Shown here: positions 23,017 through 26,135 of the stretch, in pieces | How the letters are laid out: each line of letters starts with the position of its first letter | Numbering within the stretch: position 1 is the first letter of the stretch | NCBI RefSeq assembly: GCF_053078305.1 | Contig: NZ_CP166879.1 | DNA: 64,000 bases | Strand: one strand, 5' to 3' | Program-made: the position numbers and the translations under genes | Notes under the pieces: generated by a model | Database searches by the model: none | Seen by the model: only the letters and a program-made list of their open reading frames with translations | What the model was told of the DNA's origin: nothing

Positions 23017-24995
<1,979 letters not shown>

Positions 24996-24997
<2 letters not shown>

Positions 24998-26135
24998 GTC
25001 AGAGCCCCTCGATCTCAATCAGTTAGCGCAAAAAATTAAACAGTGGGGGCTGGAACTGGGCTTTCAGCAGGTAGGTATTACCGATACCGATCTCAGCGAG
25101 TCCGAGCCCAAACTGCAAGCATGGCTGGACAAACAATACCACGGCGAAATGGACTGGATGGCACGTCACGGTATGTTGCGCGCCCGCCCTCACGAATTAT
25201 TGCCCGGTACGCTGCGCGTGATCAGCGTGCGGATGAATTACCTTCCTGCTAACGCCGCATTTGCCAGCACGCTGAAAAACCCCAAACTCGGCTATGTCAG
25301 CCGTTATGCGCTGGGCCGTGACTATCACAAACTTCTGCGCAACCGACTCAAAAAGCTGGGCGAGATGATTCAGCAACATTGTGTTTCGCTGAATTTTAGA
25401 CCGTTTGTCGATTCTGCGCCTATTCTCGAGCGCCCGTTAGCTGAAAAAGCTGGGCTCGGCTGGACAGGTAAGCACTCACTTATCCTCAATCGCGAGGCCG
25501 GTTCGTTCTTCTTTTTAGGCGAATTGCTGGTCGATATTCCGCTGCCCGTGGATCAACCAGTCGAGGAAGGATGCGGCAAATGCGTGGCCTGTATGACGAT
25601 TTGCCCGACCGGTGCCATCGTCGAGCCATATACCGTCGATGCTCGCCGCTGTATCTCTTATCTCACCATCGAACTGGAAGGGGCGATCCCGGAAGGGTTG
25701 CGACCGTTAATGGGAAACCGTATTTACGGTTGCGATGACTGCCAGCTTATCTGCCCGTGGAATCGCTATTCACAACTCACTACAGAAGACGATTTCAGCC
25801 CGCGTAAGCCGCTACACGCACCGGAACTCATTGAGTTATTCGCCTGGAGCGAAGAGAAGTTTTTAAAAGTCACGGAAGGTTCGGCGATTCGCCGTATAGG
25901 TCACCTGCGCTGGCTGCGTAATATCGCCGTGGCATTAGGCAATGCGCCCTGGGATGAAACGATTCTGGCGGCGCTGGAGAGTCGCAAAGGTGAGCACCCA
26001 CTTCTTGATGAGCACATAGCGTGGGCGATGGCGCAGCAAATCGAGAGGCGAAATGCGTGCATAGTCGAAGTGCAATTGCCGAAAAAACAGCGTCTGGTTC
26101 GGGTGATTGAAAAAGGGTTACCGCGTGACGCCTGA
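24996..26135 (+). CDS. queG: epoxyqueuosine reductase QueG
   Basis: ORF 24888..26135; start at ATG 24996 ([10 protein letters not shown]...) for 379 aa; two 4Fe-4S ferredoxin motifs (CGKCVACMTICP, CDDCQLICP). Confidence 0.9.

What the first reader, a model, noticed from the sequence alone, without database searches (positions are those of the whole stretch)
24995..24998. Divergent nnr and queG start codons overlap on opposite strands
With the chosen starts, the nnr ATG (minus, 24997-24995) and queG ATG (plus, 24996-24998) share the palindrome CATG, implying fully overlapping divergent translation-initiation regions and shared promoter space. The nnr start choice is uncertain (alternatives 24982 and 25018), so the overlap depends on annotation.
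Basis: seen in the sequence. Interest (0 to 1): 0.2.

Follow-up and report, generated by a model that had tools for sequence, protein, structure and literature searches.

The report
Head-to-head overlap of nnr and queG
Two E. coli housekeeping genes on opposite strands really do start on the same four bases (CATG), with each gene's promoter buried inside the other gene; this is rare and strongly conserved, but it is already annotated and already listed as an overlapping-transcript pair ("excludon").

Summary
The CATG at 24995-24998 is real. K-12 MG1655 and RefSeq annotate nnr (yjeF) and queG (yjeS) with exactly this 2-nt head-to-head CDS overlap.

Comparative data settle the start choice. The nnr ATG at 24997 and a GAGGGG Shine-Dalgarno 7 nt upstream are kept in 32 Enterobacterales loci. 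The alternatives at 24982 and 25018 are not conserved and lack a Shine-Dalgarno. queG has no other usable start.

"Shared promoter space" is wrong in detail, because the two promoters are interleaved:
- queG's extended -10 (TGTGgTATACT, 24954-24964) sits in nnr codons 12-15.
- nnr's -10 (TAAAAT, 25398-25393) sits in queG codons 133-135, about 388 nt upstream of the nnr ATG.

Published K-12 maps put the transcription starts at about 24972 and 25385. That gives 413 nt of complementary 5' RNA, which is recovered as RNase III-processed dsRNA. queG-nnr is listed among 16 divergent excludons of E. coli.

My additions are incremental. The junction, both -10 boxes and the Shine-Dalgarno rank 1st, 2nd, 13th and 6th among conserved stretches in 2.7 kb. 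The queG promoter motif persists across gamma-proteobacteria even where nnr has moved away.

I found no direct N-terminal or initiation-site data.

The parts
24995..24998 (.). CATG palindrome holding both start codons (queG ATG 24996-24998 on +; nnr ATG 24997-24995 on -)
   Evidence: Sequence. Same annotation in RefSeq and K-12. CATG present in 39 of 40 Enterobacterales loci.
23450..24997 (-). nnr (yjeF) CDS, 515 aa: NAD(P)HX epimerase/dehydratase
   Evidence: ORF. Pfam YjeF_N covers residues 40-199 and Carb_kinase covers 258-496. Residues 1-18 precede the conserved core.
24996..26135 (+). queG (yjeS) CDS, 379 aa: epoxyqueuosine reductase
   Evidence: ORF. Pfam QueG_DUF1730 and Fer4_16. The solved B. 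subtilis QueG aligns from residue 6. In-frame stops lie 3 codons upstream in L007, L024, L036 and L037.
24954..24964 (+). queG promoter: extended -10, TGTGgTATACT (hexamer 24959-24964). It lies inside nnr codons 12-15 (S-I-P-H read backwards).
   Evidence: Sequence. 24954-24962 is invariant in 21 Enterobacteriaceae sequences. TGnTAnnnT occurs upstream of queG in 69 of 78 loci against 13.6% of shuffles, including loci where nnr is absent or far away. The published K-12 deltaPqueG allele deletes 24936-24966.
24972..24995 (+). queG 5' leader (about 24 nt, U-rich, weak Shine-Dalgarno). Transcription start about 24970-24972.
   Evidence: Conway boundary 4392114 (K-12 version 2 coordinates), quoted in the Huang 2020 supplement. 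K-12 sequence check. SD duplex only -2.7 kcal/mol. Region folds less well than shuffles, z = +1.8.
25005..25010 (-). nnr Shine-Dalgarno GAGGGG, 7 nt before the ATG at 24997. It is the reverse complement of queG codons 4-6 (CCC CTC GAT = P-L-D).
   Evidence: -7.2 kcal/mol. queG Leu5 is CTC in 18 of 18 and Asp6 is GAT in 19 of 19 sequences carrying those residues, against typical synonymous identity of 0.2-0.5. Window 25005-25019 ranks 6th in the conservation scan.
25393..25398 (-). nnr promoter -10 hexamer TAAAAT, inside queG codons 133-135 (AAT TTT AGA)
   Evidence: 25390-25402 is the longest invariant run (13 nt) and 25388-25402 the second most conserved window. Codon 135 is the only AGA among 28 queG Arg codons. 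Non-Enterobacteriaceae use CGN there.
24998..25385 (-). nnr 5' leader (about 388 nt), antisense to queG codons 1-130. Transcription start about 25385.
   Evidence: Conway promoter at 4391701 (version 2 coordinates) with terminator at 4408049, quoted. In K-12 the start is an A 7 nt after TAAAAT. The leader is not unusually structured (z = -1.13) and has no Rfam match.
24972..25385 (.). Zone where the two primary transcripts are complementary (413 nt). It is a source of dsRNA.
   Evidence: Conway overlap 4391701-4392114. Lybecker dsRNA MS-212 at 4391717-4392100. p19 cluster S-361 at 4391754-4392109, among the 20 most abundant coding-gene clusters in stationary phase. Listed as the divergent excludon queG-nnr.
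24980..24982 (-). Alternative nnr start (Met6). Rejected as the main start.
   Evidence: ATG in 8 of 32 loci and a non-start codon in 15. SD duplex -3.2 kcal/mol. It is usable in L022, where a 1-nt deletion breaks the M1 frame.
25016..25018 (-). Alternative nnr start (TTG). Rejected.
   Evidence: Follows a TGA stop directly. No Shine-Dalgarno, +0.7 kcal/mol. A non-start codon in 11 of 32 loci. Its conservation is forced by queG codons 7-8.
24986..25000 (.). Most conserved block of the region, ATGGTCCGTCATGTC (nnr codons 1-4 and queG positions -10 to +5)
   Evidence: Rank 1 of all 15-nt windows in 2.7 kb, mean entropy 0.018.

Best explanation
nnr and queG form a genuine head-to-head overlapping gene pair whose expression signals are interleaved.

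queG is transcribed from an extended -10 promoter (TGTGgTATACT, 24954-24964) that lies inside nnr codons 12-15. Its mRNA starts at about 24972. It has a 24-nt U-rich, unstructured leader with only a weak Shine-Dalgarno, and it initiates at ATG 24996.

nnr is the first gene of the long nnr-tsaE-amiB-mutL-miaA-hfq... unit. It is transcribed from a promoter whose -10 box (TAAAAT, 25398-25393) lies inside queG codons 133-135. Its mRNA starts at about 25385 and carries a 388-nt leader antisense to the first third of queG. It initiates at ATG 24997, using a GAGGGG Shine-Dalgarno that is queG codons 4-6 read backwards.

The N-terminal tails of both proteins (nnr 1-18, queG 1-8) are therefore extensions that have grown over the partner's control signals until the two start codons met in one CATG.

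The two primary transcripts are complementary over about 413 nt. They pair in vivo and are cut by RNase III (shown in K-12).

Inferred but not shown: polymerases from the two promoters collide, and duplex formation masks both ribosome-binding sites. Strong expression of one gene would then dampen the other, which is excludon behaviour.
For: Starts
- The annotation is identical in K-12 and RefSeq.
- nnr M1 reads in frame from the CATG in 32 Enterobacterales loci spanning six families.
- The SD duplex is -7.2 kcal/mol for M1, against -3.2 and +0.7 for the alternatives.
- Synonymous sites of queG codons 5-6 are invariant.
- In-frame stops just upstream of the queG ATG in four species, and no start codon between GTG 24888 and ATG 24996, fix the queG start.

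Promoters and transcription starts
- The K-12 operon map gives 4391701 (+) and 4392114 (-) with a 413-nt overlap.
- Both starts lie 7 nt after a -10 hexamer in K-12.
- The window is identical to K-12 at all these elements.
- An unbiased entropy scan ranks the junction 1st, the nnr -10 box 2nd, the nnr Shine-Dalgarno 6th and the queG -10 box 13th among roughly 2,700 overlapping window positions.
- The nnr -10 box uses the only AGA codon in queG.
- TGnTAnnnT lies upstream of queG in 69 of 78 gamma-proteobacterial loci against 13.6% of shuffles, including loci without an adjacent nnr.
- In Pectobacterium and Brenneria the genes are 146 bp apart. The motif stays with queG, and nnr changes SLPHS to DLPDS or VLPCV.
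- A published deltaPqueG allele removes 24936-24966.

dsRNA and excludon status
- The p19 cluster S-361 and Lybecker's MS-212 cover the predicted overlap, including 21-nt duplexes over the nnr Shine-Dalgarno.
- queG-nnr is one of 16 divergent excludons of MG1655.

Rarity
- Only 2 of 663 overlapping adjacent pairs in E. coli are divergent.
Against: - I found no direct evidence for either protein's N-terminus or for initiating ribosomes. The supplements searched were empty or not held.
- The transcription-start coordinates come second-hand from one RNA-seq operon map quoted in another paper's supplement. In that table's row for this locus the fields that I read, by comparison with other rows, as dRNA-seq antisense-TSS columns are empty. 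Two other TSS supplements gave nothing.
- Neither promoter has a recognisable -35 box, and the generic promoter scan found nothing.
- ExcludonFinder also lists yjeV-queG-nnr as a noncontiguous operon. nnr may therefore also be fed by read-through from upstream, and the 5' end at 25385 could partly be a processing site.
- One MAG (L022) has the M1 frame broken and must use the Met6 equivalent. Residues 1-5 are therefore dispensable, and Met6 may be a minor start in E. coli.
- Mutual repression has not been measured for this pair.
Confidence: 0.8

Rival explanations
1. nnr really starts at Met6 (ATG 24982). On this reading there is no CDS overlap, the two start codons are 13 bp apart, and MTDHT is not translated.
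For: - An ATG is present at codon 6 in E. coli, E. albertii, Citrobacter and a few others.
- In the MAG locus L022 a 1-nt deletion puts M1 out of frame, and the Met6 equivalent (MKKNPASIPH) is the only workable start.
- Residues 1-18 lie outside the Pfam domain.
Against: - Codon 6 is ATG in only 8 of 32 loci and a non-start codon in 15. In Yersinia, Serratia, Rahnella, Hafnia and Pantoea, M1 is the only available start.
- There is no Shine-Dalgarno for Met6 (-3.2 kcal/mol). A conserved GAGGGG sits 7 nt before M1, and it is held by invariant synonymous sites in queG.
- MTDH is conserved at both amino-acid and nucleotide level.
Confidence: 0.1
2. nnr starts at TTG 25018, giving a 23-nt head-to-head overlap.
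For: It is the first start-type codon of the open frame, and it is TTG in 21 of 32 loci.
Against: - It follows a TGA stop directly and has no Shine-Dalgarno (+0.7 kcal/mol).
- It is a non-start codon in 11 of 32 loci.
- Its conservation is explained by queG codons 7-8 on the other strand.
- It would place the conserved GAGGGG inside the coding sequence.
Confidence: 0.02
3. The overlap is real but has no regulatory meaning. It is the end point of neutral upstream drift of two start codons in a compact locus, and the dsRNA is a tolerated by-product.
For: - Spacing between the two starts varies from -2 to about +100 nt in other gamma-proteobacteria.
- Pectobacterium and Brenneria separated the genes, and Morganellaceae moved nnr away.
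- K-12 strains carrying nnr::frt-kan or deltaPqueG were viable. Neither mutation had more than a minor effect in the datA and replication-timing assays.
- Both N-terminal tails lie outside conserved domains.
Against: - The exact CATG junction and its flanks form the most conserved segment of the region, well beyond what coding alone requires.
- The arrangement is kept in six families of Enterobacterales.
- The locus is among the most abundant dsRNA sources in stationary phase.
- As a class, excludon pairs show reduced co-expression in single cells, though this was not shown for this pair.
Confidence: 0.35

Closest known systems
The E. coli K-12 MG1655 queG-nnr (yjeS-yjeF) locus as already annotated and mapped: a divergent excludon, a 5'-overlapping operon pair and a dsRNA cluster (Conway 2014; Lybecker 2014; Huang 2020; ExcludonFinder 2025)
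   Same: It is the same locus. The window is identical to K-12 at the CATG, both -10 boxes, the Shine-Dalgarno and both transcription-start positions. The only differences in 24916-25425 are six point substitutions elsewhere. It has the same 2-nt CDS overlap, the same 413-nt transcript overlap and the same dsRNA.
   Different: Nothing structural differs. The papers read here only catalogue the pair. None of them discusses the codon-embedded signals, the start-codon choice or the phylogenetic depth of the arrangement.
Listeria-type excludon (Sesto et al. 2013, as cited): a long 5' UTR of one unit runs antisense to a divergent neighbour and reduces its expression
   Same: A long (388-nt) leader of one unit is antisense to the 5' part of the divergent gene. 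dsRNA and RNase III involvement are documented.
   Different: Here the coding sequences themselves overlap, and both promoters are intragenic. Opposing functions and mutual exclusion have not been shown for this pair.
Other abundant 5'-overlapping divergent pairs in E. coli, such as asd-yhgN, rsd-nudC and cpxR-cpxP (Huang 2020, Table 2)
   Same: Divergent neighbours whose 5' transcript regions pair and give p19-captured dsRNA.
   Different: According to that paper, in some of these pairs the duplex forms only within the 5' UTRs. In queG-nnr the intergenic space is -2 nt, so the duplex is made entirely of coding sequence from one gene or the other.
Same-strand short overlaps (ATGA and similar, -4 or -1 nt) used for translational coupling
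   Same: A minimal overlap of a few bases at gene boundaries, fixed over long evolutionary times.
   Different: Those overlaps join a stop to a start on one mRNA and allow ribosome hand-over. Here two start codons lie on opposite strands and on different mRNAs, so no ribosomal coupling is possible. Divergent overlaps are 2 of 663 in E. coli, against 586 co-oriented ones.

Membership tests
Divergent (head-to-head) overlapping gene pair | Adjacent protein-coding genes on opposite strands with their 5' ends facing | tested here: met
   ORFs and annotation. Pfam confirms both are real genes.
Divergent (head-to-head) overlapping gene pair | The coding sequences share nucleotides when the true start codons are used | tested here: met
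   Comparative evidence supports ATG 24997 and ATG 24996: a conserved ATG, a conserved Shine-Dalgarno, and alternatives that are not conserved. Direct protein N-termini could not be obtained.
Divergent excludon / 5'-overlapping transcription units | Transcripts of the two neighbours overlap at their 5' ends | tested here: met
   The published K-12 map gives a 413-nt overlap. The pair is listed among 16 divergent excludons found in at least 50% of 58 RNA-seq samples. The matching -10 boxes are present and conserved in the window.
Divergent excludon / 5'-overlapping transcription units | Sense-antisense duplex forms in vivo and is processed by RNase III | tested here: met
   Published data retrieved here: p19 cluster S-361 and dsRNA immunoprecipitation MS-212 cover window positions about 24977-25369. 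No experiment was done here.
Divergent excludon / 5'-overlapping transcription units | Expression of one unit lowers expression of the other (mutual exclusion) | not testable with these tools
   Shown only as a class-level trend in single-cell data. No data specific to this pair were found.
Extended -10 (TGn) sigma-70-type promoter (queG) | A TG dinucleotide one base upstream of a -10 hexamer with T1, A2 and T6 | tested here: met
   TGgTATACT at 24956-24964. The motif lies upstream of queG in 69 of 78 loci against 13.6% of shuffles.
Extended -10 (TGn) sigma-70-type promoter (queG) | Transcription starts 5-8 nt downstream of the hexamer | tested here: met
   The mapped 5' boundary at 4392114 (version 2 coordinates) is 7 nt after the hexamer in K-12. 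It comes from a single RNA-seq-based source, with an uncertainty of 1-2 nt.
Extended -10 (TGn) sigma-70-type promoter (queG) | Promoter activity is lost when the element is mutated | not tested
   A deltaPqueG allele removing 24936-24966 exists, but queG mRNA in that strain is not reported in the text read.
NAD(P)HX repair enzyme Nnr and epoxyqueuosine reductase QueG | Characteristic domain pairs: YjeF_N plus Carb_kinase for Nnr; DUF1730 plus a 4Fe-4S double-cluster domain for QueG | tested here: met
   Pfam E-values of 6.5e-45 and 2.8e-86 for nnr, and 2e-24 and 5.6e-22 for queG. Solved homologues are 2ax3 and 5d08.

The most novel reading that the evidence does not exclude
The pair is a deeply conserved dual-coding module in which regulatory DNA dictates protein sequence.
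- The nnr N-terminal motif S-(I/L)-P-H is the queG extended -10 promoter (TRTGnTAnACT) read backwards.
- queG residues P-L-D are the nnr Shine-Dalgarno read backwards.
- queG Asn-Phe-Arg(AGA) is the first promoter of the nnr-tsaE-amiB-mutL-miaA-hfq superoperon read backwards.

On this reading, selection keeps the module because the antisense overlap reciprocally tunes queuosine maturation (queG) against the unit that carries the tsaE, miaA and hfq functions.
Probability: 0.3. Interest if true: 0.4.

Novelty: already known. Interest (0 to 1): 0.2.

Why it matters
The finding shows that the textbook annotation of this locus is very likely right. It is a clean, checkable example of a rare architecture: only 2 of 663 overlapping gene pairs in E. 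coli are divergent.

In this pair, promoters, ribosome-binding sites and protein N-termini of two genes all constrain one another. The nnr-side promoter inside queG is the first promoter of what one study called the most complex operon in E. coli, which includes mutL, miaA and hfq. Synonymous changes or deletions in queG can therefore affect that unit, and edits near the nnr start can silence queG. This is practical knowledge for anyone engineering or knocking out either gene.

As a discovery it adds little, because the overlap, the transcript overlap and the dsRNA are all published.

Tried and rejected
- **Generic promoter and terminator scan of 24400-25600:** it found nothing. The scan demands a -35 match, and both promoters here have a recognisable -10 only.
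- **Direct start-site evidence:**
  - The TRAINSPOTTER N-terminomics supplements had no nnr or queG entry.
  - The Ribo-RET and Onc112 preprints have no supplements held and no mention in the text.
  - The mBio version is not held.
- **Independent transcription-start maps:**
  - Thomason 2015 and Kroger 2012 are not held.
  - The supplements of Conway 2014 and of ExcludonFinder are not held.
  - The Cappable-seq and Kim 2012 supplements gave no hits.
- **Rfam scan of 24400-26900:** only the three tRNA-Gly genes plus sub-threshold noise.
- **Folding of the 388-nt nnr leader:** not more stable than shuffles (z = -1.13), so there is no sign of a structured leader.
- **Tandem duplication as the origin of the 146-bp spacer in Pectobacterium and Brenneria:** a relic reading frame (MMGH...LMLPYL) suggests it, but local alignment of the two halves found no significant DNA similarity. 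The idea remains unproven.
- **The out-of-frame ATG at 24986 as a regulatory upstream ORF:** it has no Shine-Dalgarno (+1.8 kcal/mol), and its conservation is tied to the nnr His4 codon. I did not pursue it.
- **The upstream GTG at 24888 as a queG start:** rejected. It lies upstream of the mapped transcription start, and the frame is closed by stop codons in several species.
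Full report
**What is in the sequence**

The window is E. coli chromosome. The 1-kb stretch around the finding matches 5425 of 5426 complete E. coli genomes at 90-99.8% identity.

Positions 24995-24998 read CATG. On the + strand, ATG 24996-24998 opens a 379-codon frame ([18 protein letters not shown]...). On the - strand, the ATG at 24997-24995 opens a 515-codon frame ([18 protein letters not shown]...).

Pfam identifies the first as QueG (DUF1730 plus a 4Fe-4S double-cluster domain) and the second as Nnr (YjeF_N plus Carb_kinase).

Three PGAP-annotated strains and K-12 MG1655 all give a 2-nt head-to-head overlap (K-12: queG complement 4392928..4394067, nnr 4394066..4395613).

**Which start codons are real**

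I collected 80 queG loci from one-genome-per-species contigs and located nnr in each.
- In 32 Enterobacterales loci, nnr aligns from its first residue at the base next to the queG ATG, so the CATG overlap is conserved. These loci span Escherichia, Citrobacter, Enterobacter, Kluyvera, Cedecea, Pluralibacter, Mangrovibacter, Pantoea, Serratia, Yersinia, Rahnella, Hafnia, Edwardsiella, Budvicia and Acerihabitans.
- The N-terminus MTDH (with variants MTGH, MSDQ, MIDH, MADH) is conserved.
- A purine-rich Shine-Dalgarno lies 7 nt upstream of this ATG (GAGGGG, 25010-25005). Its duplex with the 16S rRNA 3' end is -7.2 kcal/mol. The value is -3.2 for the ATG at 24982 and +0.7 for the TTG at 25018.
- nnr codon 6 is ATG in only 8 of 32 loci and is not a start-type codon in 15. 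In Yersinia, Serratia, Rahnella, Hafnia and Pantoea, M1 is the only available start.
- The TTG at 25018 directly follows a TGA stop. It is a non-start codon in 11 of 32 loci, and its conservation elsewhere is forced by queG codons 7-8 on the other strand.
- For queG there is no start-type codon between the far upstream GTG at 24888 and ATG 24996. The frame is closed by stop codons 3 codons upstream in four species. The next Met is about residue 52. The solved B. subtilis enzyme aligns from E. coli residue 6.

I therefore take 24997 and 24996 as the true starts. One exception deserves note. The MAG locus L022 has a 1-nt deletion that breaks the M1 frame, so it must use the Met6 equivalent. Residues 1-5 are therefore dispensable, and Met6 could be a minor start in E. 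coli.

I found no direct N-terminal or initiation-site data.

**Where the promoters are**

With a -2 nt intergenic distance, each promoter must lie inside the other gene. Published K-12 data locate them.

The supplement of Huang et al. 2020 (PMC7373196) quotes three data sets for this locus:
- The Conway 2014 operon map: a + strand promoter at 4391701 with a terminator at 4408049, a partner boundary at 4392114, and a "Divergent" overlap of 413 nt.
- Lybecker's dsRNA MS-212 at 4391717-4392100.
- Huang's own p19-captured cluster at 4391754-4392109.

These are version-2 genome coordinates. I fixed the shift to version 3 at 1977 nt, using a p19 read (CAUGACGGACCAUACAAUGAAG) whose position is given in that supplement. 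Window position is then 24996 + (4392090 - version-2 position).

That conversion puts the queG transcription start at about 24972 (+) and the nnr start at about 25385 (-). Both starts sit 7 nt downstream of a -10 hexamer in K-12 itself:
- TATACT at 24959-24964, preceded by TGTGg. This is an extended -10 of the TRTGn type.
- TAAAAT at 25398-25393 on the minus strand.

The window is identical to K-12 at all these elements. A 2024 study of the neighbouring datA locus built a deltaPqueG allele, and its primers delete window positions 24936-24966. That removes exactly the TGTGGTATACT box. The generic promoter scan missed both promoters because neither has a good -35 box.

**Conservation supports these signals**

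I ran an entropy scan of all 15-nt windows over the aligned 2.7-kb nnr-queG region in 21 Enterobacteriaceae sequences, without prior assumptions.

| Rank | Window | Sequence | Interpretation |
|---|---|---|---|
| 1 | 24986-25000 | ATGGTCCGTCATGTC | start-codon junction |
| 2 | 25388-25402 | GCTGAATTTTAGACC | nnr -10 box (minus strand) |
| 3 | 25989-26003 | GGTGAGCACCCACTT | unexplained |
| 4 | 25467-25481 | GGTAAGCACTCACTT | unexplained |
| 6 | 25005-25019 | CCCCTCGATCTCAAT | nnr Shine-Dalgarno (minus strand) |
| 13 | 24951-24965 | GAGTGTGGTATACTT | queG extended -10 |

- The three longest invariant runs are 25390-25402 (13 nt), 24990-25000 (11 nt) and 24954-24962 (9 nt).
- The nnr -10 box is written in queG codons Asn133-Phe134-Arg135 as AAT TTT AGA. 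This is the only AGA among 28 queG arginine codons.
- All Enterobacteriaceae keep that codon. Pantoea, Serratia, Yersinia, Rahnella, Hafnia, Budvicia and Edwardsiella use CGN, with freely varying neighbours. This nnr promoter therefore looks specific to the family.
- In a 20-sequence, one-per-genus set, queG Leu5 is CTC in 18 of 18 and Asp6 is GAT in 19 of 19. Ordinary leucine codons in the same gene show pairwise synonymous identity of about 0.2-0.5. These codons are the nnr Shine-Dalgarno read backwards.

**The queG promoter belongs to queG**

The motif TGnTAnnnT lies within 120 nt upstream of queG in 69 of 78 loci, against 13.6% of shuffled upstream regions. In Enterobacterales it sits at a fixed -40.

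It is present where nnr is not adjacent (Photorhabdus, Proteus, Xenorhabdus, Moritella, several Photobacterium and Pseudoalteromonas). It is also present where nnr is 456 or 1198 bp away (L071, L038).

In Pectobacterium and Brenneria the two genes are 146 bp apart:
- The motif stays upstream of queG in non-coding DNA, next to a decayed relic of the old nnr N-terminus.
- nnr keeps MMTDH or MADQ at its new start, but changes S-L-P-H-S to D-L-P-D-S or V-L-P-C-V.

So the nnr tail motif S-(I/L)-P-H, where the genes overlap, is largely the queG promoter read backwards. In the other gamma-proteobacteria that keep the divergent pair, candidate starts give spacers from -2 to about 100 nt. Tolumonas again has a CATG. 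Close packing is therefore old, and the exact CATG overlap is the state fixed in Enterobacterales.

**How it most likely works**

*Shown or directly supported*
- There are two primary transcripts that are complementary over about 413 nt (24972-25385).
- This region is recovered as dsRNA by antibody pull-down and as roughly 21-nt RNase III products by p19. Duplexes include one lying over the nnr Shine-Dalgarno (AUUGAGAUCGAGGGGCUCUGA). The cluster is among the 20 most abundant coding-gene clusters in stationary phase.
- ExcludonFinder (PMC12288877) lists queG-nnr as one of 16 divergent excludons, defined as present in at least 50% of 58 MG1655 RNA-seq samples. It also lists yjeV-queG-nnr as one of three noncontiguous operons.
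- The nnr-side promoter heads the 14-gene yjeF...rlmB unit that Conway et al. call the most complex operon in their data.
- Both initiation regions are unusually unstructured (z = +1.8 for each). This fits a queG mRNA that relies on an open U-rich leader rather than a strong Shine-Dalgarno (-2.7 kcal/mol).

*Inferred*
- Head-on polymerase traffic within the 413 bp, and masking or cleavage of both ribosome-binding sites by the duplex, would make the two genes antagonise each other.
- Nobody has measured this for the pair. The neutral-compaction alternative remains reasonable, given the natural separations noted above and the mild phenotypes of nnr::frt-kan and deltaPqueG strains.

**Comparison with what is known, and novelty**

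Divergent CDS overlaps are rare. Huvet and Stumpf count 663 overlapping adjacent pairs in E. coli: 586 co-oriented, 75 convergent and only 2 divergent.

The overlap is in the reference annotation. The transcript overlap, the dsRNA, the excludon label and a working definition of PqueG are all in print.

My additions are incremental:
- The start-codon question is resolved by comparative evidence.
- Promoter and Shine-Dalgarno signals are demonstrably written into the partner's codons and held by synonymous-site constraint.
- The queG extended -10 box is conserved across gamma-proteobacteria.

I rate the finding as already known and of low interest.

Noticed in passing
window 26118-26400: The datA locus (the DnaA-inactivating sequence) lies directly after queG. 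It has DnaA boxes TTATTCACA (26149-26157, -) and TTATCCACA (26311-26319, -), and an A/T-rich IHF-type stretch at about 26225-26262. The 17-codon yjeV ORF (26118-26171, -) overlaps the queG 3' end by 18 nt. The literature lists yjeV-queG as a convergent excludon.
   Followed up: partly
window 25467-25481 and 25989-26003: There are two near-identical 15-mers inside queG: GGTAAGCACTCACTT (G-K-H-S-L) and GGTGAGCACCCACTT (G-E-H-P-L). They rank 4th and 3rd in the conservation scan and use uncommon TCA, CCA and CTT codons. The pattern occurs only at these two sites in 64 kb (0.32 expected). The first box is kept as GGTAARCACTCACTN across Enterobacterales. I found no explanation.
   Followed up: partly
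window 24986-25039 (+): An out-of-frame ATG lies 10 nt upstream of the queG ATG, on the queG leader. It opens a 17-codon frame ([17 protein letters not shown]). It is the reverse of nnr His4 (CAT), which is invariant in 21 Enterobacteriaceae sequences and is ATG in 27 of 32 overlap loci. It has no Shine-Dalgarno.
   Followed up: partly
L031 2355-2501 (Pectobacterium betavasculorum), L035 2354-2501 (Brenneria roseae), L038 (Pectobacterium zantedeschiae): These are natural separations of the pair. A 146-bp spacer (about 1.2 kb in L038) lies between nnr and queG. A decayed copy of the old nnr N-terminus and the promoter motif are left beside queG. This suggests a junction duplication, but no DNA repeat could be detected.
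   Followed up: partly
L022 about 2460-2502 (soil MAG, Enterobacteriaceae-like): A 1-nt deletion between the -10 box and the CATG puts the nnr M1 codon out of frame. The Met6 equivalent (MKKNPASIPH) is then the only start. This may instead be an assembly error.
   Followed up: no
window 23450-23478: nnr and tsaE overlap by 29 nt on the same strand (tsaE start 23478, nnr stop codon 23450-23452), as in the K-12 annotation.
   Followed up: no
window 26408-26703 (-): There are three tandem tRNA-Gly(GCC) genes (glyV, glyX, glyY). A sub-threshold Rfam YrlA hit across two of them is probably just tRNA likeness.
   Followed up: no
window 24500-25500 compared with E. coli genomes: Two of 5428-5429 matching places lie on records labelled as plasmids, and one genome of 5426 lacks the region.
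   Followed up: no
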